A stretch of 64,000 bases of DNA. Source: Deltaproteobacteria bacterium. GTDB taxonomy: Bacteria > Lernaellota > Lernaellaia > JACKCT01. The notes beneath the pieces were generated by a model. It saw nothing but the letters and a program-made list of their open reading frames with translations. It was not told the DNA's origin and searched no databases. A program made the position numbers and the translations under genes. The DNA is taken from assembly GCA_020633895.1 (NCBI GenBank), contig JACKCT010000002.1, positions 326,055 through 390,054 on the forward strand. The letters run 5' to 3'. Shown here one piece after another: positions 36,801 to 64,000 of this stretch (position 1 is its first letter; the number at the start of each line of letters is the position of its first letter).

Positions 36801-36838
36801 GATTCGTCTTTCGGGTCAACCCGGATGGGAAGTGGGGA

Positions 36839-41518: not shown

Positions 41519-41536
41519 CGCCGATCAAAAAGAAGT

Positions 41537-46321: not shown

Positions 46322-47673
46322 GGGTGCATCTGCTGGTGGCCGCGTCGCTGGTGACGATGATCTGGCTGCTGAAATTCCTACAGATCGGCCAGTTCTCCAC
46401 CGTGGTCGACGAGGCGGCGCTGGCGTTCGGCTTCATCCTGCTGGTGGCGTTCATCGTCGGCAAGGCCGTCAAGCGTGTCGGGCTGCCCGGCCTGACCGGC
46501 TATCTGTTCACCGGCATGATCTTCGGCCCCTACGGCATTGGGGTGCTACATCCCTCGCTGCAGTTCGTCACCGCGGGCGCGCTGGAGGAATTGAAGGTCT
46601 TTCAGAGCATCGCGCTGGGCCTGATCGCGTTTTCCGCCGGCGGCGAGATGCGCCTGGAGTCGGTCAAAAAGCGCCTGCGAGGCATCCTCTACGTCGCCAG
46701 CGTCCCGTCGTTGTTCGAATTTCTCTGGGTCTTTGCCGCGACGTGGTTCGCCTCGCCCTATGTGGATTTCGGCCACGAACTGACCACCGCCGGGCGCGTG
46801 GGCGTGGCGCTGATATTCGGCGTGATCGCCATTTCCGTTTCGCCCGCGGCAACCATCGCCATCGTGCTGGAATACAGGGCCAAGGGGCCGATGACGACGA
46901 TGGTGCTCGGCTCGGTGGTGGTCAAGGACGTGCTGGTCATTATCGGTTTTTCCATAACGCTGGTGGCGTCCAAGATCCTGATCCTGGGCAACACCGACTG
47001 GGATATCACGATCGTGGGCATCGTGGCCTGGGAGGTGTTCGGCTCGTTGGGTTTGGGCCTGCTGCTGGGGTACATCCTGGCCCAGTACATGCGCTACGTG
47101 GGGCGCGAAATGCCGCTGATCGTGCTGGCGCTGTCGTTTTTGGCGGTGGAATTGGCGCGGGATTTCCATCTCTCGGGCCTGCTGCTGCTGCTTTCGGCCG
47201 GTTTTTACGTCGAGAACTATTCGGAAGAGGGCGACCGCCTGGTGCAGGCGATCGACCGCTACTCGCTGCCGGTGCTGGTGCTGTTTTTCACCATGTCCGG
47301 CGCGAAGGTGCATCTGACGGATTTGCTGCCGGTGCTGCCGTTCGTGTTGCTTTACGTGGGCGTGCGCGTCTTCGCGGTCTGGGCGGGGGTGCTGGTGGCC
47401 AACAACATGGCCGGGTCCTCAACGCACATCAAAAAATACGCCTGGACGGGCCTTATCTCCCAAGCGGGGGTGACGTTGGGCCTGGCGGCGCTGCTGTCCC
47501 GGGAGTTTCCCGAAATCGGCGGCACGGTGTCGACGATGATCGTCGCGGCGGTGGCGGTCAACGAAATCGTCGGCCCGATCCTTTTCCGCGAGGGCCTGAA
47601 GCGGGCCGGGGAGGTGGACGGCACGGACACGGACGGCGACGAAGCGCCGGCGGCTCACGGCGGCGGGCATTGA
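46318..47673 (+). CDS. cation:proton antiporter (CPA family), 451 aa
   Basis: Polytopic. Start overlaps the upstream stop (ATGA). FSAGGEM-type motif. Confidence 0.75.
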   Translation: MRVHLLVAASLVTMIWLLKFLQIGQFSTVVDEAALAFGFILLVAFIVGKAVKRVGLPGLTGYLFTGMIFGPYGIGVLHPSLQFVTAGALEELKVFQSIALGLIAFSAGGEMRLESVKKRLRGILYVASVPSLFEFLWVFAATWFASPYVDFGHELTTAGRVGVALIFGVIAISVSPAATIAIVLEYRAKGPMTTMVLGSVVVKDVLVIIGFSITLVASKILILGNTDWDITIVGIVAWEVFGSLGLGLLLGYILAQYMRYVGREMPLIVLALSFLAVELARDFHLSGLLLLLSAGFYVENYSEEGDRLVQAIDRYSLPVLVLFFTMSGAKVHLTDLLPVLPFVLLYVGVRVFAVWAGVLVANNMAGSSTHIKKYAWTGLISQAGVTLGLAALLSREFPEIGGTVSTMIVAAVAVNEIVGPILFREGLKRAGEVDGTDTDGDEAPAAHGGGH

Positions 47674-47730
47674 TCGACTTTTTAATCTTTTCTGAAGCTA
47701 ATTTATGAATTGATATCGAGGCAAAAAATC

Positions 47731-48213
47731 ATGACGGAAGATTTTCAAAGAGTGATGGATTTTCTGGCAGCCGAGGATTGGAAGGCGGCCGAGCGTGAGA
47801 TCGCCGGAACCTTCCATCTCGAGATCCTCCCCGTTGATCCCAACCGTCCGCAGTCGATTCGGTTCACCGTGATCGAAATGAGCGTCTCCGATTTCTCCTT
47901 GGAGGACATCCGCCAGGTCTTCGACGAGAATCGCGATCAACTCGTAGAATTCGCGAAACGCTCCATCGGCTACGACCTTGGCCTTTTTGTGGACGGCGAA
48001 TGGGATTGGAGCGACTGGCCCATCGTGGAAAAGGAGCTTCAGGCGAAGGAGACCGAAGCGGCGGAAGGTTTTTTGATTACCTCGGCCAACTTCTTTTTGT
48101 ATGTCCAAAAGGAGCCGAAAAAACTCGTCGATTTTATCAAGCGCCGACGCATTCCCAAGGCGCGCAAAGTCGCCAAGGAAATGACGGAAGTCTATGAGTC
48201 GTTGAGTTCCTAG
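47731..48213 (+). CDS. hypothetical cytoplasmic protein
   Basis: ATG at 47731 with GAGG upstream and an AT-rich promoter-like stretch at 47674-47730. Confidence 0.5.
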   Translation: MTEDFQRVMDFLAAEDWKAAEREIAGTFHLEILPVDPNRPQSIRFTVIEMSVSDFSLEDIRQVFDENRDQLVEFAKRSIGYDLGLFVDGEWDWSDWPIVEKELQAKETEAAEGFLITSANFFLYVQKEPKKLVDFIKRRRIPKARKVAKEMTEVYESLSS

Positions 48214-48228
48214 GCGATTCCTAGTCGG

Positions 48229-48738
48229 CTAGGTTCCGCCTTCGCCTTCGCTTTTACCCTCCCCCGGTCGGTGATCGGTAAAGACGAAGTCTTCTTCAAA
48301 AACGAAATACGACGCCTTCTTCATCCCCAGGGACGCGTAGGTCTTTTGGGCGCGGACGTTTTCCGTCTCCACATACAACCGGATGCCGCGACATTGCTCG
48401 TCGCCCTGCGCCATATTGCGCAGGTGCGTGTAGAGCTTGCGGTAGATGCCCTTGCGGCGAAAATCCTCGCGCACATACACCGACTGCACCCACCACATCA
48501 CGCCGCCGCGCCAGTCGCTCCATTCCCACGTCACCATGAGTTGGCCGATGACCTCGCCGCCCGCCTCGGCGACCAAATAGAAGCCCTTGTTGTAGTCCTC
48601 GATCACCGCTTCCACCGAAGGCACGGTAATCGCCGGGTCCAGATGGCGGGCTTCGGATTCGACGGCCAGGGCGTCGTTGTAGGAGGCGATGACCAGCGCG
48701 TCGGACATTTCGGCGCGGCGGATAAGGATGTCGGACAT
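48229..48738 (-). CDS. GNAT family N-acetyltransferase
   Basis: Motif A region QLMVTWEW...VREDFRRKGIYRKLYTHL (R/Q-x-x-G-x-G/A-like) and overall size of 169 aa. ATG at 48738 preferred. Confidence 0.8.
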   Translation of the reverse strand: MSDILIRRAEMSDALVIASYNDALAVESEARHLDPAITVPSVEAVIEDYNKGFYLVAEAGGEVIGQLMVTWEWSDWRGGVMWWVQSVYVREDFRRKGIYRKLYTHLRNMAQGDEQCRGIRLYVETENVRAQKTYASLGMKKASYFVFEEDFVFTDHRPGEGKSEGEGGT

Positions 48739-48764
48739 GGAGCTACCTCGCGATTCTTGCGGCG

Positions 48765-49667
48765 CTACTTGACCTGTTCCCAAATCGAATGCACCGCCTC
48801 GGCGATCTCTTCGGGCACCTCTTCCTGGAGGAAATGCCCCGCGTTGGTGCGCGTCAGCTTGGCGTTGGGCAGCACGCCTTGCACCCGAGAAAGCGCCCGG
48901 CCCAGCACCGGGTCCTTGTCGCCCCAGACGATGGCGGCCGGGCCGGTGAAGCTCCGGGCGAACGCGGCCACCTCCTTGAGCTGGGCGATCGACGGATGCT
49001 CCAACGAATCGGGGACCATGCGCGCCAGGGCCAGCGGGGCGACGTTTTTTGACAGGCCCATCAGCGGGAATTTGTAGGCGCGGGCGACCTCGCCGCTGAT
49101 GGATTTCTTGTCCCCCTGGGCCGCGCTCAGGCGCACCTGGGGAAACCCGAGAATGCGAAAGACGAAGTCGCTGATCAGCGGCATGCGGGCGAATTTGTGA
49201 AACGTGGTGGCGTGAAATCCCTCGCGCGGCGGGCCCAGGACCGTGTTGAGGATGACCATGCCCTGGACGATTTCAGCGTGCTTGGACAACGCCAGGGCGC
49301 CGATCGGGCCGCCCCAGTCCTGGCCGACGAAGATCACCTTGTCGAGCTTCAATTGGCCGATCAGGTCGCCGAGCCATTCGCCGTGGTTTTGCAGCGTGTG
49401 TTCCTCGGCGCGAATGCGATCGGAAAAGCCCAGGCCGATCAGGTCGGGCAGGATGATGCGCAAAGGGTATGGCGACAGGGCCTTGGCGACCTTGCGATAG
49501 AGGTAGCCCCACGTGGGGTTGCCGTGGACCATCAGCACCGGGTAGCCGTCCGCGGGGCCCTGCTCCATGACGTGCATCTTCAGGGCGCCGACCGGCACCA
49601 CGTAGCGCTTGAACGGCAGTTGCTTGAGCAGCCACTCGGGCAGATCGGGCGCGGGCAGGGTGTTCAT
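48765..49667 (-). CDS. alpha/beta-fold hydrolase (haloalkane-dehalogenase-like subfamily)
   Basis: HGNPTWGYLYR oxyanion region. Nucleophile elbow GQDWGG. C-terminal His region GHFLQEE. Confidence 0.8.
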   Translation of the reverse strand: MNTLPAPDLPEWLLKQLPFKRYVVPVGALKMHVMEQGPADGYPVLMVHGNPTWGYLYRKVAKALSPYPLRIILPDLIGLGFSDRIRAEEHTLQNHGEWLGDLIGQLKLDKVIFVGQDWGGPIGALALSKHAEIVQGMVILNTVLGPPREGFHATTFHKFARMPLISDFVFRILGFPQVRLSAAQGDKKSISGEVARAYKFPLMGLSKNVAPLALARMVPDSLEHPSIAQLKEVAAFARSFTGPAAIVWGDKDPVLGRALSRVQGVLPNAKLTRTNAGHFLQEEVPEEIAEAVHSIWEQVK

Positions 49668-49848
49668 CGAGTCCTCATCCTTTGACTTGGTTGAAGAAAT
49701 GTCCGACGCAAATCGAACATAGCGTGGGCCGAACATAGCACTGCCGGAGCGATCGGAAAACGCCGGGATTCCATCAGCGCGTCCTCAGCGTCTTTCTTGA
49801 GGTGGTTGATCCCCTTGATTATGATGGGAATATCCTCGTGTCGCTTGA

Positions 49849-51501
49849 ATGAAAGCCGACATGCTTTGCCCAACGCGAAATGAAATCGAGGCGCCCATGC
49901 GCGAGGCGGATAAAGAGCGGGTTCTGGTCGAGGTCAAAAGCCGCGTGATGGACCACGTGGTGCATTTGGCGGATAAAGACCCGGCGTACCTGGACAACCT
50001 GATCCACGAGGTCATCTACTTCGAGGAGCGGCGGCTGGACACGCACAAATCGGCGCCGGGCGTCGAGGAGGACCGGGTCTGGCTGGGCGCGATCCGCCAT
50101 CGCTTCAAGGACGCCAGCCAGCCGGAGAAAAAGCGCATCGTCGCCGACATCATCGGCCGCCACGCCCACGAAGTCATCGGCCACTTCTCCGAGCCGGTCT
50201 ACCAACTGACCACCAGCGTCGTCCCCACGGGCCTGGGCGTCATTTTAAGCGGCCTGTCGCCCCTCAAGCTGGTGCGCAATTTCCCCAACCTTCCCGACCT
50301 GCCCGACGTGGCCGACAACATCCGCATCGAAGGCGAAGTGGAGCAGCTCCAGGCCCTGGACAAGTTGGGCACGATCGTCCTGGTCCCGACGCACTCCTCC
50401 AACCTGGACTCCCTGGTGTTGGGCTACTCGATCTTTCAGATGGGCCTGCCTCCCTACACCTACGGCGCCGGGCTCAACCTGTTCTCCCACAAGATGCTGG
50501 GCTTTTTCATGCATCGACTGGGAGCGTACAAGGTCGACCGCCTCAAGCAGCATTCGCTTTACAAGGAGGTGCTCAAGACCTACGCCACGATTACGCTGGA
50601 AGAGGGCTACGACAATCTCTTTTTTCCCGGCGGCACGCGCAGCCGCTCCGGCGCCATCGAACGCAAGCTCAAGATGGGCCTGCTGGGCTGCGGGCTGTCG
50701 GCCTATTACCACAATCTGGTCAACGGCAAGCAGAATCCCAAGGTCTTCATCGTCCCGGCCACGCTGAACTACCAACTCGTCCTGGAAGCCGAAAACCTCA
50801 TCGACGACCACCTCAAGGAAGCGGGCAAGTCCCGCTACATCATCGAGGACGACGAGTTCTCCATGCCCACGCGCATCTACACCTTCATGCGCAACCTGGT
50901 CTCCCTCAATGCCCATGTGGAACTGCGCATCTCCAAGGCGCTGGACCCCTTCGGCAACGACGTGGACATGGACGGCAATTCCCGGGACGGCCACGGGCGC
51001 GTCATCGATATCGAACGCTACCTTTATCAGGACGGCCGACTGATCGAGGACGGCGCCCGGGACCACCAGTACACCCGCGAACTGGCCGACCGCATCGTCG
51101 AGGCCTACTACCGGGACAACGTCGCCTTCTCGACGCACGTGGTCGCCTGGACCATCTACCGCATGCTGCGCGCCGAACACCCCAAATGGGATCTCTATCG
51201 CTACCTGCGCGAGACGGCCATGGACGCGGCGATCCCGATGGTGGAGGTTTATCGGGGCGTGGAGGAAACGCTCTATCAGTTGAAAAAGCTGGCCGAGGAA
51301 GACCGCATCCGGCTGTCCGAGGTGGTGCGTAGCGGCGATGTGGAGCGTGTGGTGGCCATTGCCCTCAAGGTCTTCGGCTGCTACCACACCAAGCCGGTGC
51401 TCGAACGCCAGGGCGATCGAATCTTCGCCCGCGACATGAACCTGCTCTATTACTACCGCAATCGGCTGTGGGGCTACGGCCTGCCCGGGTCGGAGGATTG
51501 A
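49849..51501 (+). CDS. glycerol-3-phosphate O-acyltransferase, PlsB-type (compact 550-aa form)
   Basis: All four GPAT blocks are present: VPTHSSNLDSLVLGY (HX4D), FFMHRLGAYKV, FFPGGTRSRSGA, VFIVPATLNYQLV. Confidence 0.8.
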   Translation: MKADMLCPTRNEIEAPMREADKERVLVEVKSRVMDHVVHLADKDPAYLDNLIHEVIYFEERRLDTHKSAPGVEEDRVWLGAIRHRFKDASQPEKKRIVADIIGRHAHEVIGHFSEPVYQLTTSVVPTGLGVILSGLSPLKLVRNFPNLPDLPDVADNIRIEGEVEQLQALDKLGTIVLVPTHSSNLDSLVLGYSIFQMGLPPYTYGAGLNLFSHKMLGFFMHRLGAYKVDRLKQHSLYKEVLKTYATITLEEGYDNLFFPGGTRSRSGAIERKLKMGLLGCGLSAYYHNLVNGKQNPKVFIVPATLNYQLVLEAENLIDDHLKEAGKSRYIIEDDEFSMPTRIYTFMRNLVSLNAHVELRISKALDPFGNDVDMDGNSRDGHGRVIDIERYLYQDGRLIEDGARDHQYTRELADRIVEAYYRDNVAFSTHVVAWTIYRMLRAEHPKWDLYRYLRETAMDAAIPMVEVYRGVEETLYQLKKLAEEDRIRLSEVVRSGDVERVVAIALKVFGCYHTKPVLERQGDRIFARDMNLLYYYRNRLWGYGLPGSED

Positions 51502-51503
51502 CG

Positions 51504-52637
51504 ATGAGTTCGATGACCAATCCGCCCACGGTGGGATTCGTCGGTTCCCGCGCCTTGTGGCACGCCATGGCCGAGTTGGCCCTGGCCGCCGGAGCGCCGG
51601 TGCTGATCTTCGGCGACGAGACGCCCAAGGCGCCGACGACCAAGGCGAAGACGAACGGCAAGTCCCCCAAATCCTCCGCCAAGGCCAATGCCAAGGCCAA
51701 TGCCAAGGCCCAGGCAACATCCGAGTGGCCGAAGGGCGTGAAGGCCGCCAAGTCCGTCAAGCAGCTTTGCGAGGAGTGCCCGGTGATCTACCTGGGCTCG
51801 CCGACGGACGGCGCGCGCGCGGTGCTGCAATCGATGGGACCGCACCTGCGCCCCGATCATATGATCGTGCATCACACGCGCGGGCTGGAGGACCACGGCG
51901 AGAAGCCGCCGTTCTATCGAGTCTCCGAGATTGTCCGTCAGGAGTGCTGCGTCAAAAAGATCGCGGTGATCGCCGGAGCCGTGCGGCCCGACGAATTGCG
52001 CCAGGGCATGCCGTCGGCGTGCGTGATCGCCTCGCCTTATCGGGACGTGGTGCATAAGGTTCGGGCCGTGTTCGGTTCACCCGTGTTTCACATTTACGAG
52101 ACCGAGGACCTGGTCGGCGCCGAATTGGGCATGGCCCTGACGCCGGCTTACGCCATCGCGATCGGCCTGGTGCAGGGCATGGGATTCGGCGCGGGGACGA
52201 CCGGATTTATCGCCACCCGCGCGGTTTCGGAAATGGCGCGATTTTCCGCTCCCATGCGGGGCGAGCCGGCGACCTTTGCCGGGTTGTCGGGCATCGGGGA
52301 ATTGCTGACCGCCGCGCTGCGTCCCGACCATCCCTTTGTCGAACTGGGCCGAACGCGCGTGAAGGGCAAGGACGTTCCCCTGGAAAACCCCGCGCCGGAG
52401 TTGCGGGAGGGCCTCACGTCGTTGCGTCTGGCTGCGGCGTTCGCGCGGAACAACGCCATCTTTACGCCGATCCTCCTGGGGGTCGACGCCGTCATCCACG
52501 AGGGCCGTCCCATCGCCGAGGTGGCGCGCCACCTGCTGGCCGTGGGCACCGGCCACGAGAAAGAGATCCGCATCGACGAGGCCGTGCGCTCGGAAGCGTG
52601 GCGCCTGGCGCCCCGGGGCGGAGCCGGAAAGAACTAA
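51504..52637 (+). CDS. NAD(P)H-dependent glycerol-3-phosphate dehydrogenase (GpsA)-like protein with an atypical N-terminus
   Basis: C-terminal two-thirds aligns with GpsA (ISGP..A.E, GGAVKNV-like GLVQGMGFGAGTTGFIATRAVSEMARF, PATFAGLSGIGELLTA). The N-terminus has a degenerate GxGxxG and a Lys/Ala-rich insertion (KAPTTKAKTNGKSPKSSAKANAKANAKAQ). Confidence 0.65.
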   Translation: MSSMTNPPTVGFVGSRALWHAMAELALAAGAPVLIFGDETPKAPTTKAKTNGKSPKSSAKANAKANAKAQATSEWPKGVKAAKSVKQLCEECPVIYLGSPTDGARAVLQSMGPHLRPDHMIVHHTRGLEDHGEKPPFYRVSEIVRQECCVKKIAVIAGAVRPDELRQGMPSACVIASPYRDVVHKVRAVFGSPVFHIYETEDLVGAELGMALTPAYAIAIGLVQGMGFGAGTTGFIATRAVSEMARFSAPMRGEPATFAGLSGIGELLTAALRPDHPFVELGRTRVKGKDVPLENPAPELREGLTSLRLAAAFARNNAIFTPILLGVDAVIHEGRPIAEVARHLLAVGTGHEKEIRIDEAVRSEAWRLAPRGGAGKN

Positions 52638-52642
52638 CATAA

Positions 52643-53719
52643 ATGTTTCCCCTTTATCGACGGGACGATCGTCGCCTGCCCGGCGACTTCGAGGGCCATG
52701 TCGTGACCTGCGACGTGGACAAGACCTATCTGGAGACGGACTTTCGTTCGTTGGGCGGGTTGCTGCGCATTCCGTTGGAATGGGCGGAAGACAAGCTCAC
52801 CGTGCCCGGCATGGCCGCCGCCCTTTCCGCCTTGCGTCACGGCCCCGGAGCCCAAAGCCGTTTGACTCCGTTGTATTTCCTCACCGCCAGCCCGCCGCCC
52901 CTGGCCCGATCCCTGGAACGCAAGATGCTGCTGGACGGGGTGCAGAATGACGGCATCACCTGCAAGGCGTGGAAGACGATCCTCATGCGCCGCCGTCCGG
53001 CGTGGATCAAACGCCAGATTGCCTACAAGCTCTCGGCTCTCCTCCACCAACGCACCTTCCTGCCCCGGGAGGCGCGGGAGATTTTGATCGGCGACGACAT
53101 CGAGATCGATCCGCTGGCTTACGCCCTCTATGCCGACATCCTCGCCAAGCGCATCGACGACACCGAGTTGTTGATTTGGCTGCGTCACGAGGGTTGCGAT
53201 GTGGATGAGATCCGCGAGGTGATGGAGCACAAGTCGGCGCTGCGGCGGCCGGGGGACCGGGTGGAGGCGGTGTACATCCGCCTGGTGTCTGGACGCGGCC
53301 CGGCGACGTATCACGTCTTCGGCGCGGATATGGTCACTTACCGCTCGCCGTTACAGTTGGCGCTTTCGGCGGTGACGCGGGGCTACGCGCGGGAGACGGA
53401 CGTGGTGGAGGTGGCGCGGGAACTGCTCGACGGCCACGGCGTCACGCCCGAGGTGATCGACGACGAATTTCACGGCGCGGTGGAGCGGGGATTGCTCACC
53501 CCGGCGCTCGCCTACGAGACGCACGACCAACTGCAGATCCTGGGCTTGGCCTCCAAACTCGATCCCACCGTCAACCGTGTCGAAGCCCGTTGCGCGCCGT
53601 CTCGCGACGGCCGGGGCGGACGTTGGACGCCGAGCTTGGAAGAATACGAACAGGCGATGACGCAGGCCTTGGCGACGGACTCCGCCGGGAACGAGGCGCA
53701 GCGGTCGTTTGATTTTTGA
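52643..53719 (+). CDS. App1-like/DUF2183 family protein (putative phosphatidate phosphatase)
   Basis: N-terminal HVVTCDVDKTYLETDF matches the DxDxT-type motif of DUF2183/App1 lipid phosphatases. Soluble, 358 aa. Confidence 0.55.
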   Translation: MFPLYRRDDRRLPGDFEGHVVTCDVDKTYLETDFRSLGGLLRIPLEWAEDKLTVPGMAAALSALRHGPGAQSRLTPLYFLTASPPPLARSLERKMLLDGVQNDGITCKAWKTILMRRRPAWIKRQIAYKLSALLHQRTFLPREAREILIGDDIEIDPLAYALYADILAKRIDDTELLIWLRHEGCDVDEIREVMEHKSALRRPGDRVEAVYIRLVSGRGPATYHVFGADMVTYRSPLQLALSAVTRGYARETDVVEVARELLDGHGVTPEVIDDEFHGAVERGLLTPALAYETHDQLQILGLASKLDPTVNRVEARCAPSRDGRGGRWTPSLEEYEQAMTQALATDSAGNEAQRSFDF

Positions 53720-53738
53720 ATTTGGCCCATGAACGGTG

Positions 53739-53835
53739 TGTCATCCCGAACGCAGGGAGGGACCTCTCGTACGTTGTTCGTGATCGTGTCTGGAAGGGAA
53801 GCGTACGAGAGATCCTTCGCGTTGCTCAGGATGAC
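53739..53835. repeat. REP/MITE-like palindromic element (family C copy: GTCATCCCGAACGCAGGGAGGGACCTCTCGTACG ... CGTACGAGAGATCCTTCGCGTTGCTCAGGATGAC)
   Basis: 34-bp imperfect inverted arms share the GTCATCC(T/C)GA terminus with 33267-33368. Located between convergent genes. Confidence 0.65.
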
Positions 53836-53854
53836 AGACCCACTTCCATAACTC

Positions 53855-54991
53855 TTATGCCCCCACCGCCTCGACCAACGTCCCCACCATGCGTGCGAAC
53901 GTGAAATGCTCCGTCGCCAGACGGCGGCCCGCGTCGCCCATGCGGGAGGCGAGGGCGGGGTCGTCGAGCAGGCGCGCGACCTTGGCGGCGATGTCCGTCG
54001 GGTCGGTCGGGTCGGCGAGCAGGCCGTTTTCGCCTTCGCGGACCGCCTCGGGAATACCGCCCGAATTGCCGCCCACAACCGGCACCCGGTGGTAGCCCGC
54101 CTCCAGGAACACCAGGCCGAAGCCCTCCACGTCCTCGCCGATTTGCCGGCTCGGCATAACGAACACGCTCGCCGCCGCGTACAGCGCCGCCAGCTCCCGG
54201 GCGCTCGCCCGTCCCGCAAAGACGACCATGTCCGAGACGCGCAACTCGTCGGCCAAGCTCTCCAATCGCGCCCGGTCCGGCCCGTCGCCGACGATCACGT
54301 ACACCAGGTCATCGTACGTCGTTCGTAGAATCGGCAGGGCACGCAGCGCCATGTCGTGACCCTTGCGCGTCACCAGACGTCCGACGGAGAGCAGCACGCG
54401 CTTGCCGGTCAGCGGGACGCCGTGAAACGGCTCGGGCAGGGGCGGCGCGTCGGCGCGCTCGAAGATGCATCCCATGGGGATTTTCACGGGCTTCGCGCCG
54501 GGGGCGAAGCGTCGGACATAGTCGGTGAAGATATCGGCGATCGTCGAGACGACTTGCGCGTCGGTCAGCAGCCGTCGCCAGACGGCGCGGGCGGGGGATT
54601 TGTCCAGGCGCAGCAGGTCGTTGCCGTAGGTGAGCACCACGTACGGCCGCCCGGTCGCGCGGCTCCACAGCCAGGCCGTCGGCCCGGCGAAGGCGATGTA
54701 CCCGCACAGGACGCGGTCGAATTTCTCCCGTCGGGACAGGCGGATCACGGTCGCCAGCACCGCCAATTGACGAAGCAGCAGTGCGATCGGACGCGGCCAG
54801 GCGTCGAAACGGCGGATGCGATGGATGGGGCGGGGGTAGGCGGCGTCGTGCGTCGCGGCGCCGGACTCTTCACCGGCAATGACGGTCAGATGCCCCGGCC
54901 AGCGTCGCGCCAGTTGATCGAGCACCGTCTGCACGCCGCCCACGTCCGGCGGAAAATCCCGGGCGATCAGCAGCGTATGGGCGCCGCTCAC
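53855..54991 (-). CDS. glycosyltransferase family 4 (GT-B, retaining)
   Basis: GTG start at 54991 (VSGAHTLLIARDFPPDVGG) overlaps the upstream stop (GTGA). C-terminal EX7E-type region (FVMPSRQIGEDVEGFGLVFLEAGYHRVPVV). The N-terminal ~150 aa of the ORF-track version are Arg/Gly junk and rejected. Confidence 0.8.
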   Translation of the reverse strand: MSGAHTLLIARDFPPDVGGVQTVLDQLARRWPGHLTVIAGEESGAATHDAAYPRPIHRIRRFDAWPRPIALLLRQLAVLATVIRLSRREKFDRVLCGYIAFAGPTAWLWSRATGRPYVVLTYGNDLLRLDKSPARAVWRRLLTDAQVVSTIADIFTDYVRRFAPGAKPVKIPMGCIFERADAPPLPEPFHGVPLTGKRVLLSVGRLVTRKGHDMALRALPILRTTYDDLVYVIVGDGPDRARLESLADELRVSDMVVFAGRASARELAALYAAASVFVMPSRQIGEDVEGFGLVFLEAGYHRVPVVGGNSGGIPEAVREGENGLLADPTDPTDIAAKVARLLDDPALASRMGDAGRRLATEHFTFARMVGTLVEAVGA

Positions 54992-56145
54992 CGGCTTTGG
55001 CGTTTGTGCCGCCACGTGGTCTCCAAATGCCCGAGGATCTGCCCGATGCGCTTCTCCCAAGAATTTTCCCGGGCCAGCGCGATGCGGGCCTCGCGGGCGG
55101 TCGGGTCGTTCTTTTTCGCCCGTTGTTCCTCGATGGCGGTCACGAAGCTTTCCACGCTCTGCGCCAGGCCGATGTGTTCCTCGAAGGCCTCCAATTCCGG
55201 CAGGCGCGTGGCCACCACCGGGCGGCCCGACGCCAGGTATTCGTAGAACTTCATCGGCAGCACACCGCGGGTGTAGCGATCCAGGCGATAGGGAATCCAG
55301 CACACATCCATCGCCGCCATCACCGTCGGCAGATCCTCGATATGCCGCCGCCCGAGGAAATGCAGATTGTGCCGTTGGCGAAAGCGCTCCACGCCGAATC
55401 CCCGGTCCGGTCCGACGAATACGAAATGCCAATCAGGCCGGGCGTTGGCGATCTTGTCGATCAACTCGTCGTCCAGCTTGTAGTTGAGCGCGCCGACGAA
55501 TCCCACGACCGGCCGGGGCATGGCCTCGATCGCCGGGTCCGCCTTGGCGGTCATCGTTTTGTGGAAATGCTCGAAGTCGGCCACGTTGGGGACGAAGTGC
55601 GTGTTGTTGTTGTAGGCCTTCTTGTCCTCAAACAGCGTGCGCGCCGTGGTCGTCACGCAGTCCACGTTCTTGAGCAACGCCCGCTCCATGCCCTTGGTGG
55701 CGGCCATCCACGCGCCGGGCATGGCCGAATATTCGTCCACGCAGTCGTACAGGCTGACGGAAAAAGGGTAGAGGGAGAGCATGGGCGCCGAGGTCGGCGG
55801 ATAGAGCCAGAGGATCGGGTCGACGAATTCCCGCCGGGCCAATTCGCCCTGGACGATGGGCGCGAGCATGCGGTGGTTGATCTCGTTGATCCCGGCGATC
55901 TTCTGCCCGAAGGGCACCGCTCCCGGCGGCCGTAGGACCGTCACGCCGGACGGATCCTCGAGGATGCGGTGGGAATGGGAGCGCTTGCGACTGCGCAGCG
56001 ACGCGAGGGGCTCGACGTAGAGCACCCGAAACTCCCCCGCCAGGCGCGAGGCGATCTGCTGCTTGTTCGTCCACAGCGGCTCGTCCCAATCGGCCGTGGA
56101 GAACATCAGCACGTCCCGGGGGATGTCGAATTGGTCGAAGTTCAT
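54988..56145 (-). CDS. glycosyltransferase family 4 (GT-B)
   Basis: GT4 C-terminal domain. Operonic with the downstream GT4. Confidence 0.7.
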   Translation of the reverse strand: MNFDQFDIPRDVLMFSTADWDEPLWTNKQQIASRLAGEFRVLYVEPLASLRSRKRSHSHRILEDPSGVTVLRPPGAVPFGQKIAGINEINHRMLAPIVQGELARREFVDPILWLYPPTSAPMLSLYPFSVSLYDCVDEYSAMPGAWMAATKGMERALLKNVDCVTTTARTLFEDKKAYNNNTHFVPNVADFEHFHKTMTAKADPAIEAMPRPVVGFVGALNYKLDDELIDKIANARPDWHFVFVGPDRGFGVERFRQRHNLHFLGRRHIEDLPTVMAAMDVCWIPYRLDRYTRGVLPMKFYEYLASGRPVVATRLPELEAFEEHIGLAQSVESFVTAIEEQRAKKNDPTAREARIALARENSWEKRIGQILGHLETTWRHKRQSR

Positions 56146-56183
56146 GGGTGTAGGCTGCCACGATTTTCAAATGTCTGCGAGCC

Positions 56184-56292
56184 TTCAGAGCCCCGACCTG
56201 CTTGCCCACCGTAGCCTTGGCGAAGGGGGGTCAGGGAGCGGGTTGGTACGTCGTGGCAACCCGCTTGCTTACGCGCGCGGCTCTGAAAGGTC
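56184..56292. repeat. compact MITE-like element (family B: TTCAGAGCCCCGACC ... GCGCGGCTCTGAAAGG), about 108 bp
   Basis: Termini match the TIRs of the 21074-21443 element. Internal CCGTAGCCTTGGCG and CAGGGAGCGGGTTGGT blocks are shared. Followed by GGTCGAGAG x2. Confidence 0.7.
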
Positions 56293-56335
56293 GAGAGTGC
56301 GTCTCAAAAAGGTCGAGAGCGCGGCGGCGAATCCT

Positions 56336-57019
56336 CTACCGCTTCACCAATTCCGACCAGTCGAAATCGATGTACCATACCTCCCCCACATGCACCCAAT
56401 ACTGCTTGACCAGCTTGGTGTCGACACGGGCGGAGGGCAGGATCGTGCGGTTGATGTAACGGACCAGGACGGTGCCGTAATAGACCTCTTCGGCCTTGGG
56501 CTTGCGGCCCTTGGGGCGGTCGACACCGGCTTCCTTGAGGGATTCGTCGCTCTGAGGCGTCTGATCCTTCTCGATGGCGTCGACGGCCTCTTCCTTGCCG
56601 ATGACCTCCCGAGGCGTTTCCCCGCCCGGCGGATTGGTCTCGACGGGCAGACGCATCTGCATCGGGTCGTCTTCGGCCTCTTCCTCGGGTAGCTCCGTGT
56701 CCGGCAGTTCCAGATCCCGCACCGGCGGCGTCTTCTGGGCCTGGCAGATGACGATGGAGAAGTTCTCGATGCTCAGGTTGCCCACGTGGGACTCGCCCTC
56801 GACAAGAAAGTCGATGCGCTTGCTGGGCACCACCATCAGGCTGGCGGCCCGGTAGTTCTGCCAGACGATGAGGCGGTTGAAGTCGTTGGCCGCCTCGCAC
56901 AGGGACGAGGAAATCTCCTGCACCTTGCGGGTCTCGCGCTTGTCCTTGCACGAGCTACCCATCAGCGACAGGGCGGCGACCAGCACTAAGGCCAGGAGGG
57001 CGGGGCGGCGAAGGGCCAT
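56336..57019 (-). CDS. secreted/lipoprotein-like hypothetical protein (Glu/Pro-rich middle)
   Basis: Signal peptide MALRRPALLALVLVAALSLMGSSC. Codon-usage-consistent. Confidence 0.5.
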   Translation of the reverse strand: MALRRPALLALVLVAALSLMGSSCKDKRETRKVQEISSSLCEAANDFNRLIVWQNYRAASLMVVPSKRIDFLVEGESHVGNLSIENFSIVICQAQKTPPVRDLELPDTELPEEEAEDDPMQMRLPVETNPPGGETPREVIGKEEAVDAIEKDQTPQSDESLKEAGVDRPKGRKPKAEEVYYGTVLVRYINRTILPSARVDTKLVKQYWVHVGEVWYIDFDWSELVKR

Positions 57020-57043
57020 ATCAACTCCGGTCACGAGGAGGAC

Positions 57044-57538
57044 TTAAAACGCCTGGGGACGCAGGTACCAACGGCCGCCGGATTTTTCCCAACGCTGAAT
57101 CTCGTGGATCTTGGCGCGCCAGATGAAATAGATCGTCCCCCAGACTTCCATGTCCACCTGCGCCACCACGTTGTTGGGCTCCAGCTTGATCTGATTGACG
57201 CGGTATTTTAGGACGATTTCCCGCGCAAAGGAATTTCGGCGCATCAGGGCGGTCTGAATGGCGATGAATTCGGTGAGATCTTTCTCGTTTTCGAAGTAGT
57301 CGGCGATCTTGTCCTTGGTGGAATAGGCCGCCAGCTTCTGGTCCTTCAGGTCGGTCCACAGGCCGTCCACGCGGGCGCGGATCTGTTCGACTTCCAACTC
57401 GGCGGCGGGGCCTTCCAGGCTTTTGATCTCGTCGTATCCCTCCAGGCGCAGATTCTCGACCTTGAGCGCGCACGTCGAAAAGACGAGGGCGAAGACCAGG
57501 GCCGCGAGCGGGGCGACGAAAAGCGGGCGATATTTCAC
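57044..57538 (-). CDS. hypothetical lipoprotein (signal peptide ...LVFALVFSTC)
   Basis: N-terminal signal with Cys after the hydrophobic core. 164 aa. Same strand and operon position as lgt/lspA. Confidence 0.5.
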   Translation of the reverse strand: MKYRPLFVAPLAALVFALVFSTCALKVENLRLEGYDEIKSLEGPAAELEVEQIRARVDGLWTDLKDQKLAAYSTKDKIADYFENEKDLTEFIAIQTALMRRNSFAREIVLKYRVNQIKLEPNNVVAQVDMEVWGTIYFIWRAKIHEIQRWEKSGGRWYLRPQAF

Positions 57539-58512
57539 GAGCGGTTCTTTCCCTTGCGCTTCTTCCCGCCGCCGGACTTGCCGGCCGATACGGCGGCGGC
57601 CTTCGCGGGAGCGGGAGTGGACGCCGGGATCTTATCGACCGGCTTGCGCTTGGGCAACCAAATGAAAATCACGGCCGCCAAGGCGAAGAGGATGAGGCTG
57701 ACGACCTGGCTTTCGGAAAGCTGAAAGGCGTATTGCCCCGGCGTGGTCTCCACGACCGCTTCGGTGACGAGCAGGAACTTCCACAAGCCCGTGGCCGTGT
57801 CGGCGGTGCGCCCGGCGTCGGCGGAGAAATGAAAGAGCGTCAGGAAGCCGCGCGGGTCGGCGCGGAAAAACTCCAGGGTGCTGCGCATGACGCCGTAGAG
57901 GACCAGAAACAGGGCCATGACCTGGCCGTGGAATTTCTTGCGGGGCAGCACGCCGAAGTAGAGGATCGCGAAGATCGCGAAGGACGAGAAGGACTCGGCG
58001 AGCTGCGTGGGGTAGAGGGGGATCCCGGCGATGCCGATGGTTTCCTTGGGGAACGTCACCCCCAACGGGAACGAGGCCGGGCACGCCTTGCCGTGGCAGC
58101 AGCCGGACAAAAAACACCCGATGCGCGCGAATCCCAGCCCCAGGGCCACGGTCGGCGCCACGATGTCCGAATATTGCGCCAGGTCCAAATGCTTGCGACG
58201 CAGATAAAGCAGCCCGGCGGCCGACCCGGCGATGAACCCGCCGTAGAAGACCAATCCGCCTTCCCGCACGTTGAAGATCTGCCACGGGTGGGCCTTGTAG
58301 TGATCCCAGAAGACGAAGCAGTGGAACAGGCGGGCGCCGACCATGGCGGCCACGACGACCCACACGGCCATATTGCTGATGTCGTCCGGATCGCCGCCTT
58401 CGACCTTGACTCGGTGGGAGGCGGTGTAGATGGCGGCCAGAAAGGCCAGGGCCAGCATGAATCCGTAGGAATGCACCGGCACGCCGAAGACGGTGAAGAG
58501 AATCGGATGCAT
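57535..58512 (-). CDS. lgt: prolipoprotein diacylglyceryl transferase with Lys-rich C-terminal tail
   Basis: MHPILFTVFGVPVHSYGFMLALAFLAA start. Lgt signature region GGLVFYGGFIAG...RIGCFLSGCCHG. ATG at 58512 chosen; the Arg-rich upstream ORF extension is rejected. Confidence 0.9.
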   Translation of the reverse strand: MHPILFTVFGVPVHSYGFMLALAFLAAIYTASHRVKVEGGDPDDISNMAVWVVVAAMVGARLFHCFVFWDHYKAHPWQIFNVREGGLVFYGGFIAGSAAGLLYLRRKHLDLAQYSDIVAPTVALGLGFARIGCFLSGCCHGKACPASFPLGVTFPKETIGIAGIPLYPTQLAESFSSFAIFAILYFGVLPRKKFHGQVMALFLVLYGVMRSTLEFFRADPRGFLTLFHFSADAGRTADTATGLWKFLLVTEAVVETTPGQYAFQLSESQVVSLILFALAAVIFIWLPKRKPVDKIPASTPAPAKAAAVSAGKSGGGKKRKGKNRS

Positions 58513-59036
58513 CAGGCGGCGTCCTTCGCGTCGGCCGACTTGCCCGGTTCGGCGGCGGAGCCTTCGCGGAAATTGTCGTAGAGAAAGACCAGCACGCCGA
58601 TCACGATGGCCGCGTCGGCGACATTGAACGCCGGCCACGACAGACCGCGAAAATAGACCAGGAGAAAGTCGATCACCGCGCCCAGGCGCACCCGGTCGAT
58701 CAGGTTGCCCACCGCCCCGCCCAGCACGGCGGCCAGGGCGATAATCTGACGGCGCTGCGTGAGCTTGAGTTGGGCAATGAAGTAGATCAGCGCCGCCATC
58801 GCCACGCCGGCCACGACGAGGAAAAAGATCGTCGGGTGTTTGTCGAACAGGGAAAAAGCCGCGCCCCGGTTGTAGCGCATGGTCAGGTCGAACAGGCCGG
58901 GGATGACCTTGACGCCGGTGTTTTCCGGGATGGCGTTGACGGCGACGAGCTTGGTGATCTGGTCGGCGACCAGGCACGGCACGGCCACCAGCGCGACCAG
59001 TTTCGTCTTGGGGCCGATCACCGAGCCGGGACCCAT
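58512..59036 (-). CDS. lspA: lipoprotein signal peptidase (SPase II), copy 1
   Basis: Motifs YNRGAAFS, GGAVGNLIDR, VIDFL, FNVADAAI. Stop overlaps the lgt start. Confidence 0.85.
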   Translation of the reverse strand: MGPGSVIGPKTKLVALVAVPCLVADQITKLVAVNAIPENTGVKVIPGLFDLTMRYNRGAAFSLFDKHPTIFFLVVAGVAMAALIYFIAQLKLTQRRQIIALAAVLGGAVGNLIDRVRLGAVIDFLLVYFRGLSWPAFNVADAAIVIGVLVFLYDNFREGSAAEPGKSADAKDAA

Positions 59037-59611
59037 CGCTGCGGGGCGGGAGCCTTGGCCGGGGCGCCTTCGATCGGGTCGTCGCTTTGCGTCGCGGCGG
59101 TTTCGGCGTCCGGCTCGGCCGGTTGATCCAGCCCGAAGGGGTCGCGGCGGATCATCTCCCACATGAAGATCAGCACGCCCACCACGATCGCCATGTCGGC
59201 CACGTTGAACGTCGGCCAGACCGTGCCGTAGAAGCGCACGTCCAGAAAATCCACGACGGCGCCGGACAGCAGGCGGTCGCTGATGTTGCCCAGGGCGCCG
59301 CCCAAAATCATCGCCAGCGCGGTGGCCAGACGCCGGTGGCGGGGGTTGACCTTGATGACGAAGTACAAAATGAACGCGATCGCGATGACCGAGATGACCA
59401 GGAAGAAATACAGGGGCTTGCCTCGGAACATGCCGAACGCGGCGCCCGGATTGTGCTTGAGGGTGATGGAGAAGAATTTGGGCACCACGGCCATCGACTC
59501 TTCGAGCCGGAAGGTGGCCGTCACCCAGAATTTCGTGATCTGATCCGCGGCCAGCGTCAGCAGCATCGCGTAGGTGATCAGAAAATATTTATTGCGCAGC
59601 GAAGAATTCAT
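59018..59611 (-). CDS. lipoprotein signal peptidase (SPase II), copy 2 (tandem paralog, acidic C-terminal tail)
   Basis: Motifs HNPGAAFG, GGALGNISDR, VVDFL, FNVADMAI. Overlaps copy 1 by 19 nt. Confidence 0.85.
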   Translation of the reverse strand: MNSSLRNKYFLITYAMLLTLAADQITKFWVTATFRLEESMAVVPKFFSITLKHNPGAAFGMFRGKPLYFFLVISVIAIAFILYFVIKVNPRHRRLATALAMILGGALGNISDRLLSGAVVDFLDVRFYGTVWPTFNVADMAIVVGVLIFMWEMIRRDPFGLDQPAEPDAETAATQSDDPIEGAPAKAPAPQRWVPAR

Positions 59612-59783
59612 CGTCCGTGATCCCGACGGCTGTTGATGGCCGTTCCGACAACGCCAACGAGCGTCCGGATCCCGCCGGACGCCCTAAGTCGGGATGTGGT
59701 AACGAAAACCGGCCCGCCGGTCAAGGTGGGGTGGGACCCACGGCTCGGCGAGAACAAGAGAAACAAGGGATGGCTTGGGGTGT

Positions 59784-60896: not shown

Positions 60897-60998
60897 CGAC
60901 TTTGCCAATCGGGTCGGAAGGCGAACATCTTGAATACGCTTGTGCAAACAAAATGGGGTAAGATGCTTTCTCCGACAAGGGGAGCGAGGAGAAAAAGC

Positions 60999-61514: not shown

Positions 61515-61640
61515 GGAGCGTTGGTGATCGTGGGTGCCACACTCTTAGGTCGCCACGGGCGACCAAGGGTGTGGCATGCGGCCGTTCAAAGTTCGCACAC
61601 CTTCTCTCCGACGGGCGTCGTCGCGAAAGTGTGGCACCCG
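61511..61640. repeat. REP/MITE-like element (family B fragment GTAGGGAGCGTTGGT followed by family A palindrome TGGGTGCCACACTC ... TCGCGAAAGTGTGGCACCC)
   Basis: Same B-then-A order as in 21088-21140. Located between convergent ogt and gltX. Confidence 0.7.
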
Positions 61641-61647
61641 ACGAGGT

Positions 61648-63069: not shown

Positions 63070-63139
63070 GAGGCACCTTTTCGTTTCGGCTCGTCAGACC
63101 GAGTCGGTCAGTTTCAGCCGATCGGGCAATGGAAACGAT

Positions 63140-63961: not shown

Positions 63962-64000
63962 CGCCCAAGCATGGCCGCCCGGACCGCCCTGTCAAGCAAA

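What the first reader, a model, noticed from the sequence alone, without database searches (positions are those of the whole stretch)
49849..56145. Compact glycerolipid gene cluster (PlsB-type GPAT, GpsA-like, App1/DUF2183-like PA phosphatase) facing two GT4 glycosyltransferases: candidate diacylglycerol-based glycolipid (phosphate-free lipid) pathway
Three consecutive plus-strand genes with 2-5 bp junctions encode the steps G3P synthesis (GpsA-like), G3P acylation (a full four-motif PlsB-type GPAT, uncommon outside gamma-proteobacteria), and a eukaryote-type App1-like phosphatidate phosphatase (DxDxT motif CDVDKTY) that would release diacylglycerol. Directly opposite, two overlapping GT4 retaining glycosyltransferases could glycosylate DAG. 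Two separate LPLAT acyltransferases (2572-3459, 12030-12962) would supply the second acylation. Together with the Pho supercluster in the same window, this looks like a dedicated DAG/glycolipid or triacylglycerol branch, possibly for membrane lipid remodelling under Pi limitation. The App1-like PAP in a bacterial de novo lipid operon is the most unusual element.
Basis: partly seen in the sequence, partly recalled or inferred. Interest (0 to 1): 0.7.

Follow-up and report, generated by a model that had tools for sequence, protein, structure and literature searches.

The report
Conserved acyltransferase–phosphatase lipid operon, dead GpsA
Three tightly packed genes (a GPAT-type acyltransferase, a glycerol-3-phosphate-dehydrogenase look-alike that has lost its active site, and a yeast-App1-type lipid phosphatase) form an undescribed operon conserved in hundreds of uncultured Myxococcota-like bacteria, but the two neighbouring glycosyltransferases and the phosphate-starvation genes are not linked to it.

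Summary
The three genes exist as described, with 2-bp and 5-bp junctions. Their order is acyltransferase (AT), GpsA-like, APP1-like.

- **APP1-like protein:** it is a HAD-fold phosphatase with every catalytic motif invariant.
- **Conservation:** the triad is strongly conserved. 69 of 70 related loci with enough flank carry AT and GpsA-like upstream of the APP1-like gene. One metagenomic protein fuses AT directly to APP1 with no GpsA.
- **GpsA-like protein (new here):** in this window it has lost the GxGxxG motif and all seven catalytic or substrate-binding residues, so it cannot make G3P. About 80% of family members keep them. Loss occurred in three separate clades.
- **GT4 pair:** it is convergent with the triad and separated by a strong hairpin. 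It is absent from all 83 related triad loci. Its orthologues sit with lspA-lgt-lipoprotein genes or in an undecaprenyl-phosphate polysaccharide locus.
- **Pho link:** no Pho-box-like repeats and no pst linkage were found.

Best reading: a soluble module that makes phosphate-free acylglycerol (MAG or DAG), with a pseudoenzyme subunit. The glycolipid/Pho story is not supported.

The parts
49797..49825 (+). Sigma-70-like promoter candidate (TTGAGG-17-TATGAT) just upstream of the acyltransferase gene.
   Evidence: It is the only hit in 7 kb, and shuffles give about 1 on average, so this is weak evidence.
49849..51501 (+). GPAT1/PlsB-class acyltransferase (AT). The likely true start is ATG 49897 (534 aa). 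It has motifs I-IV: HSSNLD, GAYKVDR, FFPGGTRSRSG, IVPATLNY. It has no transmembrane segment.
51504..52637 (+). GpsA-fold pseudoenzyme (377 aa). The Rossmann GxGxxG is replaced by GFVGSRA. Catalytic and substrate residues K120, K204, N205, D260, T264, R269 and N270 (human GPD1 numbering) are replaced by R, T, P, E, A, P and F. It has a K/A-rich low-complexity insert and a clade-conserved C-terminal LAPRGGAGK tail.
   Evidence: A GGAGG Shine-Dalgarno sequence lies inside the 3' end of AT, and the spacer is 2 bp.
52643..53719 (+). App1-family (PF09949) HAD-fold phosphatase (358 aa) with intact motifs: D24-x-D26-x-T28, S83, K108/K129, G150-D-D-x-E-x-D156. It has a helical C-terminal half and an RGGRWTP tail.
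53735..53840 (.). Long imperfect hairpin in the convergent intergenic gap. It is probably a bidirectional terminator or insulator between the triad and the GT4 operon.
   Evidence: MFE -55.2 kcal/mol, z = -2.75 against shuffles.
53855..54991 (-). GT4a. This is a NEIGHBOUR and not part of the module: a generic GT4 retaining glycosyltransferase and the last gene of a minus-strand array.
   Evidence: It is absent from all 83 triad loci. Its orthologues are paired with GT4b in lgt/lipoprotein or polysaccharide loci.
54988..56145 (-). GT4b (TuaH-like). This is a NEIGHBOUR and not part of the module. It lies downstream of lspA, lgt and two putative lipoprotein genes.

Best explanation
The finding is a self-contained three-gene operon conserved across uncultured Myxococcota-like bacteria. 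It most likely encodes a soluble or peripheral enzyme assembly that makes a phosphate-free acylglycerol de novo.

Proposed mechanism:
1. The GPAT1/PlsB-class acyltransferase acylates glycerol-3-phosphate.
2. The App1-type HAD phosphatase removes the phosphate from the acylated product. It acts either directly on lysophosphatidate to give monoacylglycerol, as in plant GPAT4/6, or on phosphatidate to give diacylglycerol after a second acylation by an enzyme encoded elsewhere.
3. The product would feed neutral-lipid or other non-phospholipid synthesis.

In most genomes the middle gene is a fully canonical GpsA that supplies G3P on the spot. In this window's clade it has become a catalytically dead pseudoenzyme that is nevertheless kept, translationally coupled, between its partners. 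I infer that it serves as a structural or regulatory subunit.

The adjacent GT4 pair and the Pho cluster are unrelated neighbours.

Shown: gene structure, folds, intact or lost catalytic motifs, conservation, and the fusion. Inferred: substrates, product, complex formation and physiological role.
For: - Triad conservation: 266 genome loci encode relatives. In 69 of 70 loci with at least 2.7 kb of upstream flank, AT and GpsA-like precede the APP1-like gene on the same strand. Junctions are mostly -4 to +10 bp.
- No fourth conserved gene was found in the flanks, and no LPLAT is nearby.
- Rosetta-stone fusion: P0250 (848 aa) combines PF01553 and PF09949, and its locus L084 has no GpsA-like gene beside it.
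- Phosphatase: DxDxT, S/T, K and GDDxExD are invariant. The HAD fold has its nearest neighbours among capless phosphatases, and the list includes the Nir2 C-terminal domain solved with phos(phatidic acid) and lipin.
- Yeast App1 accepts PA, LPA and DGPP (PMC11832324).
- Plant GPAT4/6 couple GPAT and phosphatase activities to make MAG (PMC3327653).
- GpsA: 59 of 76 family members keep 7/7 catalytic residues plus GAGSWGT. The window protein keeps 0/7. Degenerate forms fall in three separate clades of the AT tree. The ORF is still intact in all 7 window-clade members and carries a conserved C-terminal motif.
- None of the three proteins has a transmembrane segment.
Against: - No biochemical data exist for any bacterial member, and I found no paper on the operon.
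- The Pfam APP1_cat score is only just above threshold (31.0 against 27.1), and there is no solved App1 structure for comparison.
- The substrate of the phosphatase (LPA, PA, G3P or another) is not determined.
- AT has Gly where GPAT1 and PlsB have Glu in motif III, so its acceptor could differ from G3P.
- The scaffold role for the dead GpsA is inference only. It evolves fast (27-40% identity within the clade), which could also mean slow decay.
- One locus (L066) has the APP1-like gene alone.
- The AT-APP1 fusion was seen once, on a low-coverage contig.
Confidence: 0.5

Rival explanations
1. The triad makes diacylglycerol, which the two facing GT4 enzymes glycosylate into phosphate-free glycolipids, under Pho control during phosphate limitation.
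For: The genes are physically adjacent in this window and in a 99.4%-identical sister assembly. A Pho cluster lies about 6 kb away. GT4a has weak sub-threshold similarity to MGlcDAG synthase, 30 bits against a cut-off of 400.
Against: - The GT4 pair is convergent with the triad and separated from it by a strong hairpin.
- GT4a and GT4b are absent from all 83 related triad loci.
- GT4-pair orthologues follow lspA-lspA-lgt and two putative lipoprotein genes (L087). In Ca. Lernaella they sit with a Wzx-type flippase, the Bac_transf initiating transferase, a UDP-sugar dehydrogenase and epimerases (L088).
- The best GT4 family hits are EpsE and TuaH, all far below their cut-offs.
- The TGACGA repeats upstream of pstS are not found upstream of the triad or the GT4 pair.
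- No pst or phoU genes lie near the triad in other genomes.
Confidence: 0.05
2. Phospholipid homeostasis rather than neutral-lipid synthesis. AT is an alternative first step of membrane phospholipid synthesis. The phosphatase trims excess LPA or PA (a futile-cycle brake or signalling control), as yeast App1 acts outside de novo synthesis.
For: [quoted passage not shown] GPAT-class enzymes normally feed phospholipid synthesis. The operon is widespread and looks like housekeeping, with variable flanks.
Against: Tight translational coupling, and even fusion, of a synthase with an enzyme that destroys its product is more typical of a two-step pathway than of a brake. A dedicated GpsA in most operons points to flux into a product.
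Confidence: 0.15
3. DHAP/ether-lipid-type route. AT is a DHAP acyltransferase (GNPAT-like). The GpsA-type protein reduces acyl-DHAP, and the phosphatase finishes the pathway, as in eukaryotic ether-lipid synthesis and the myxobacterial MXAN_1676-1674 and elb operons.
For: By established knowledge (not tested here), GPAT1, PlsB and GNPAT share one fold class, so the GPAT1-like model does not by itself exclude a DHAP acceptor. Myxobacteria have GNPAT-like and HAD-phosphohydrolase genes in ether-lipid operons (PMC9131029). AT motif III is atypical.
Against: No alkyl-DHAP synthase or fatty-acyl reductase gene is conserved beside the triad. Where GpsA is intact it keeps all the residues that bind free DHAP/G3P. 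In this window the reductase is dead. MXAN_1675 has a different architecture, FAR-like plus GNPAT-like (PMC9131029).
Confidence: 0.1
4. The phosphatase acts on a soluble substrate, for example G3P to glycerol (a GpsA plus G3P-phosphatase osmolyte route as in yeast GPD/GPP). The acyltransferase association is secondary.
Against: The AT-APP1 fusion lacks GpsA. GpsA is repeatedly inactivated while AT and the phosphatase stay intact. The family matches Pfam APP1_cat and has no cap domain, which suits bulky or interfacial substrates.
Confidence: 0.08

Closest known systems
Saccharomyces cerevisiae App1 (Pfam PF09949 APP1_cat), Mg2+-dependent phosphatidate phosphatase
   Same: Both are HAD-type catalytic domains with DxDxT and the downstream motifs. 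The Pfam APP1_cat model matches over 145 of its 154 positions. Most homologues carry the same precomputed Pfam hit.
   Different: The score is only just above threshold. The window protein has no actin-patch or proline-rich regions and is a 358-aa stand-alone protein with an unrelated helical C-terminal half. Yeast App1 is reported not to act in de novo synthesis (PMC11832324), whereas this protein sits inside a de novo-type operon with a GPAT.
Plant GPAT4/GPAT6, bifunctional sn-2 GPAT/phosphatase producing 2-monoacylglycerol
   Same: Both combine a PF01553 acyltransferase with a DxD-type HAD phosphatase acting on the GPAT product. In the bacterial family the two are adjacent genes and, in P0250, one polypeptide. 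The plant enzymes convert G3P to MAG without an LPAAT (PMC3327653).
   Different: In P0250 the AT domain is N-terminal and the APP1 domain C-terminal; I recall the reverse order for the plant enzymes, which was not checked here. The phosphatase family here is APP1_cat, and homology to the plant phosphatase domain was not tested. The AT is GPAT1/PlsB-class. No link to cutin is known.
Human mitochondrial GPAT1 / E. coli PlsB (sn-1 glycerol-3-phosphate acyltransferases)
   Different: The window protein is about 530 aa against about 800 aa. It scores 66 bits against the PlsB equivalog cut-off of 618. Motif III has Gly instead of Glu. No membrane segment is predicted. It has its own N-terminal helical bundle and a C-terminal winged-helix-like domain.
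Bacterial GpsA, NAD(P)H-dependent glycerol-3-phosphate dehydrogenase
   Same: It has the two-domain GpsA fold, with phmmer E = 3e-19 to A. fulgidus G3PDH 1txg. In most triads the protein is a canonical GpsA.
   Different: In this window 0 of 7 catalytic or substrate residues remain and there is no GxGxxG motif. All NCBIfam GpsA cut-offs are missed, for example 167 against 257. It is predicted to be inactive as a dehydrogenase.
Myxococcus xanthus ether-lipid loci (MXAN_1676-1674; elbA-E)
   Same: These are operons from the same phylum that combine a GNPAT/AGPAT-like acyltransferase with NAD-dependent enzymes and, in elb, a HAD-like phosphohydrolase (PMC9131029).
   Different: Those loci use AGPS, FAR-like and ACS/ACP domains and NAD-epimerase-family proteins. 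None of these is in the triad or conserved beside it.

Membership tests
App1-type phosphatidate phosphatase (Pfam PF09949 APP1_cat) | Score at or above the Pfam gathering threshold over the catalytic domain. | tested here: met
   31.0 bits against 27.1, profile positions 3-147 of 154. This is marginal. Most of the 120 listed homologues also carry PF09949.
App1-type phosphatidate phosphatase (Pfam PF09949 APP1_cat) | HAD catalytic motifs: DxDxT nucleophile and acid, a Ser/Thr motif, a Lys, and the GDxxxD acidic motif. | tested here: met
   D24, D26, T28, S83, K108, K129, G150, D151, D152, E154 and D156 are invariant in 24 diverse homologues.
App1-type phosphatidate phosphatase (Pfam PF09949 APP1_cat) | HAD Rossmannoid fold. 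| tested here: met
App1-type phosphatidate phosphatase (Pfam PF09949 APP1_cat) | Mg2+-dependent dephosphorylation of PA (also LPA and DGPP). | not testable with these tools
   This needs an enzyme assay. The substrate range of yeast App1 is taken from PMC11832324.
PlsB (TIGR03703 / NF003441 equivalog) | Full-length match above the curated cut-off (about 800-aa protein). | tested here: not met
   65.9 bits against 618.5 and 61 against 610. Only residues 163-318 match. The protein is 534-550 aa.
GPAT/DHAPAT class of LPLAT acyltransferases | Motifs I-IV (HX4D, G-x-x-F/Y-x-x-R, EGTRSRSG-type, hydrophobic-P-x-x-I/L-x-Y) and a GPAT1-like fold beyond the 130-aa core. | tested here: met
GPAT/DHAPAT class of LPLAT acyltransferases | Acceptor specificity (G3P, DHAP or LPA) and acyl donor. 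| not testable with these tools
   Source names disagree: NCBI gives 1-acyl-sn-G3P acyltransferase and JGI gives G3P O-acyltransferase.
GpsA, NAD(P)H-dependent G3P dehydrogenase | N-terminal GxGxxG dinucleotide-binding motif. | tested here: not met
   The window protein has VGFVGSRALW, whereas canonical triad members have GAGSWGT. The Pfam N-domain match starts only at profile position 40.
GpsA, NAD(P)H-dependent G3P dehydrogenase | Catalytic and substrate residues K120, K204, N205, D260, T264, R269 and N270 (human GPD1 numbering). | tested here: not met
   The window protein has R, T, P, E, A, P and F at these positions (0/7). 59 of 76 family members keep 7/7.
GpsA, NAD(P)H-dependent G3P dehydrogenase | Curated NCBIfam cut-offs. 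| tested here: not met
   The best score is 167 bits against a cut-off of 257 (NF000942). All 14 models are below their cut-offs.
Glycosyl-diacylglycerol synthases (e.g. NF049988 alpha-MGlcDAG synthase) for the GT4 pair | Match above the curated cut-off, or conserved linkage with DAG-producing genes. | tested here: not met
   30.2 bits against 400. No GT4a or GT4b was found in 83 triad loci. Orthologues lie in lgt/lipoprotein and Bac_transf/Wzx polysaccharide contexts.
Pho regulon membership of the triad | The Pho-box-like direct repeats seen upstream of pstS in the same genome, or conserved pst linkage. | tested here: not met
   pstS has about four TGACGA-type repeats at a 10-11 bp period (38070-38100). 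None is present upstream of 49849 or 56145. No pst or phoU genes lie near the triad elsewhere. The true Pho box of this lineage is unknown, so this is a weak test.

The most novel reading that the evidence does not exclude
A phylum-wide bacterial 'acylglycerol synthase' metabolon. A soluble GPAT1-class acyltransferase is physically coupled to an App1-type lipid phosphatase and converts G3P and acyl-thioester straight into monoacylglycerol (or DAG). This would be a bacterial counterpart of plant GPAT4/6 and of the eukaryotic PAP step. Its dedicated GpsA subunit has been converted to a non-catalytic scaffold in the window clade, and its substrate-binding residues were replaced in two further clades, so the GpsA fold has a structural role in the complex that is independent of catalysis.
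Probability: 0.3. Interest if true: 0.7.

Novelty: new variant of a known kind. Interest (0 to 1): 0.55.

Why it matters
- **Source of DAG/MAG.** To my knowledge, the characterised bacterial phosphatidate phosphatases are membrane PAP2-type enzymes. A soluble App1/HAD-type lipid phosphatase hard-wired to a GPAT would be a different, eukaryote-like solution to making MAG or DAG. Such products could feed storage lipids or non-phosphorus lipids.
- **Lineage.** The operon occurs in a lineage already known for eukaryote-like lipid chemistry (ether lipids, plasmalogens).
- **Scale.** The operon is present in at least 266 species-level genomes, and I found no paper describing it.
- **Pseudoenzyme evolution.** The repeated loss of GpsA substrate-binding residues, complete in the window clade, while the gene stays in place gives a clean natural experiment on pseudoenzyme evolution and on complex formation in lipid synthesis.
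- **Annotation.** This 'GpsA' should not be annotated as a G3P dehydrogenase. The neighbouring GT4 genes should not be read as glycolipid synthases.

Tried and rejected
- **GT4 linkage.** I searched 83 triad loci with tblastn for GT4a, GT4b and the upstream alpha/beta-hydrolase. There were no hits, so I rejected the linkage.
- **A conserved fourth gene.** I clustered all flank ORFs across 81 loci looking for an LPAAT, WS/DGAT or ACBP. Nothing recurs in more than about 12 loci. ACBP follows the triad only in one Anaeromyxobacter MAG.
- **Pho boxes.** k-mer and pattern comparison of the upstream regions found nothing shared between pstS and the triad.
- **Solved structures for the APP1-like family.** A PDB sequence search with the family profile found nothing. 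Foldseek against the PDB gave only weak HAD hits. The afdb50 library was unavailable, so I could not compare structurally with fungal App1.
- **Native contig.** Look-up of the native contig through P0121 failed. I obtained a 99.4%-identical sister assembly through GT4b instead.
- **Literature.** Searches for DUF2183, bacterial App1, Myxococcus PlsB and Lernaellota lipids found no description of this operon.
- **MXAN_1675 (PlsB2).** I considered it as the orthologue and rejected it, because its architecture is FAR-like plus GNPAT-like.
- **Upstream gene in the fusion locus L084.** I checked whether it was a displaced GpsA. It is not.

Full report
**What is in the sequence**

The region holds three plus-strand genes.
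- AT runs from 49849 to 51501. The homologue alignment and the NCBI model of the 100%-identical protein P0121 both start at the Met encoded at 49897, giving 534 aa.
- The GpsA-like gene runs from 51504 to 52637. The longer mechanical ORF from 51468 is an over-extension. The ATG lies 2 bp after the AT stop and is preceded by GGAGG.
- The APP1-like gene runs from 52643 to 53719, 5 bp after the previous stop.

Pfam gives PF01553 for AT, PF01210 and PF07479 for the second gene, and PF09949 (APP1_cat) for the third at 31.0 bits against a gathering score of 27.1.

On the minus strand, GT4b (54988-56145) and GT4a (53855-54991) overlap by GTGA. The triad and the GT4 pair are convergent. The 135-bp gap between them folds into a long hairpin of -55 kcal/mol with z = -2.75. 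They are therefore separate transcription units with no shared promoter region.

**The acyltransferase**

NCBIfam PlsB models match only residues 163-318, at 66 bits against a cut-off of 618. The protein is therefore not PlsB. The four LPLAT/GPAT motifs are present and conserved: HSSNLD, GAYKVDR, FFPGGTRSRSG and IVPATLNY. Motif III has Gly where GPAT1 and PlsB have Glu.

**The phosphatase**

No solved structure is close by sequence.

**The GpsA-like protein is a pseudoenzyme here**

Alignment to the solved G3P dehydrogenases 1txg and 1z82, and a family alignment anchored on them, cover seven residues: K120, K204, N205, D260, T264, R269 and N270 (human GPD1 numbering). In the window protein these are R, T, P, E, A, P and F.

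The GxGxxG motif is replaced by GFVGSRA. The Pfam N-domain match begins only at profile position 40.

Of 76 triad-encoded GpsA proteins:
- 59 keep all seven residues and a canonical GAGSWGT.
- 4 keep six residues.
- 13 keep three or fewer.

The degenerate proteins fall in three separate clades of a tree built from the AT sequences.
- In the window's clade (the window plus L001, L003, L004, L005, L006 and L008) the replacements differ from genome to genome. This indicates relaxed selection on the active site.
- In another clade (L050, L068, L070, L083) the replacements are consistent, which may mean a changed function.

The ORF is nevertheless intact in all seven window-clade genomes. It keeps scattered conserved positions and a shared C-terminal LAPRGGxGK tail. 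I conclude that the protein cannot supply G3P here. I infer, without proof, that it is retained as a structural or regulatory partner.

**Conservation and fusion**

Homologues of the APP1-like protein come from uncultured 'Myxococcota', 'Deltaproteobacteria' or unclassified 'bacterium' MAGs. A scan of GTDB species genomes found 266 loci.

Among the 80 best loci, 70 have at least 2.7 kb of upstream flank. Of these, 69 carry AT and GpsA-like upstream on the same strand. Most junctions are -4 to +10 bp. The one exception, L066, has the phosphatase gene alone.

No other flanking gene family recurs in more than about 12 of 81 loci. An ACBP gene follows the triad only in an Anaeromyxobacter MAG.

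A profile search of 1.84 billion cluster representatives gave 1116 relatives, 493 of them at E <= 1e-30. One of these, P0250 (848 aa), is an AT-APP1 fusion. Its locus has no GpsA-like gene beside it. AT and the phosphatase are therefore the functional core, and GpsA is an accessory.

**The GT4 pair belongs elsewhere**

GT4a, GT4b and the upstream alpha/beta-hydrolase are absent from all 83 triad loci. In the window the pair ends a minus-strand array:
- gltX
- an FGE-sulfatase-domain gene
- lspA
- lgt
- two small ORFs with signal/lipobox-like N-termini
- GT4b, then GT4a

The array from lspA through GT4a recurs in locus L087, a 56%-identical orthologue on a 1.47-Mb contig with no triad within 8 kb. 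In Ca. Lernaella stagnicola (L088) the orthologous pair sits among two more GT4 genes, a Polysacc_synt flippase, a Bac_transf (PF02397) initiating transferase, a UDP-sugar dehydrogenase and epimerases.

The best family hits for the two GT4 proteins are EpsE and TuaH, far below their cut-offs. MGlcDAG synthase scores 30 bits against 400.

**No Pho link**

The Pho cluster is real: phoU, pstB, pstA, pstC and pstS, a PMT_2-like gene, and phoR/phoB-like genes (33409-44013), with glpD at 31490-33244.

The pstS upstream region has about four TGACGA-type direct repeats at a 10-11 bp period. Nothing similar lies upstream of the triad or of GT4b. No pst, phoU, glpD or LPLAT genes accompany the triad in other genomes.

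**Mechanism**

The operon encodes three consecutive activities in its ancestral form:
1. DHAP to G3P (GpsA).
2. G3P to acyl-G3P (AT).
3. Dephosphorylation (APP1-like).

It never includes an LPAAT. Together with the AT-phosphatase fusion, this resembles plant GPAT4/6, which convert G3P to monoacylglycerol through LPA (PMC3327653). Yeast App1 accepts LPA as well as PA (PMC11832324).

I therefore favour a module that makes a phosphate-free acylglycerol. Whether the product is MAG (direct) or DAG (after an unlinked PlsC) is open. Rival readings are listed with their tests: PA/LPA homeostasis, a DHAP/ether-lipid route, and a soluble substrate such as G3P.

I found no paper on this operon. The M. 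xanthus MXAN_1676-1674 and elb loci differ in architecture.

**Verdict**

The finding is an undescribed but widespread operon built from known enzyme families, with an unexpected pseudoenzyme. I rate it of moderate interest.

Noticed in passing
window 38070-38100 (minus strand, upstream of pstS 36839-38062): There are about four direct repeats of a TGACGA-type motif at 10-11 bp spacing (TTGACGTCTA TGTGACGAAAA TATGACGAGA TATTCGACGA). This is a candidate Pho box for this lineage.
   Followed up: partly
window 21092, 31407, 56234 (plus strand, all intergenic): The 13-mer GGGAGCGGGTTGG occurs three times, always between genes. The copies at 21 kb and 31 kb share about 35 nt (TTC[AT]GAGCCGCGAC-CT[GA]TAGGGAGCGGGTTGGTCC). 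The copy at 56 kb, upstream of GT4b, forms a palindrome with CCAACCCGCT. This may be a small repeated intergenic element or an operator.
   Followed up: partly
window 56297-56330 (upstream of GT4b): There is a tandem direct repeat of CTCTCGACCTTT (two copies 22 bp apart) in the intergenic region between the putative lipoprotein gene and GT4b.
   Followed up: no
window 1604-3459 (minus strand): [quoted passage not shown] The pairing recalls the acyltransferase plus NAD-epimerase genes of the M. xanthus ether-lipid operons (PMC9131029).
   Followed up: no
window 51504-52637 and 52643-53719; loci L001, L003-L006, L008: Degenerate GpsA-like proteins of the window clade end in a shared LAPRGGxGK tail. 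Many APP1-like proteins across clades end in an R-G-G-x-W-(T/L)-P or W-T-P-x-x-x-L tail. These may be docking or membrane-binding peptides.
   Followed up: partly
window 51620-51730 (GpsA-like residues ~40-75): There is a K/A-rich low-complexity insert (KAPTTKAKTNGKSPKSSAKANAKANAKAQ) in the Rossmann domain. It is unique to this genome among clade members.
   Followed up: partly
L085 12486-13501 (sister assembly GCA_020633875.1, 99.4% identical to window 46187-64000): The APP1-like gene is called as two ORFs (243 aa and 109 aa) there. The two assemblies differ by 15 gap openings over 15.8 kb. This is either a sequencing-indel artefact or a strain-level frameshift. The window copy is intact.
   Followed up: partly
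window 57535-59611 (minus strand); L085, L087: Relatives have two tandem lspA (Peptidase_A8) genes before lgt. The 480-aa 'lgt' ORF in the window (LGT domain only at residues 158-440) is probably over-extended across a second lspA copy (ORF 58512-59162). Two small ORFs with signal/lipobox-like N-termini (56336-57034 and 57044-57538) follow lgt.
   Followed up: partly
P0333 (1059 aa), P0365 (501 aa), P0324 (583 aa): Other APP1-like architectures exist: APP1_cat fused to a complete methionyl-tRNA synthetase (possibly a gene-call read-through), APP1_cat plus an HD domain, and a 583-aa form with an unassigned C-terminal half.
   Followed up: partly
window 39800-41518 (minus strand): A PMT_2-like (dolichyl-phosphate-mannose-type) membrane glycosyltransferase gene, matched weakly at 21.5 bits, sits inside the Pho cluster between pstS and the phoR-like kinase.
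   Followed up: no
window 12030-12962 and 13113-14309 (minus strand): The second LPLAT carries the eukaryote-style Acyltransf_C domain (PF16076). Next to it lies a Kelch-repeat beta-propeller protein.
   Followed up: no
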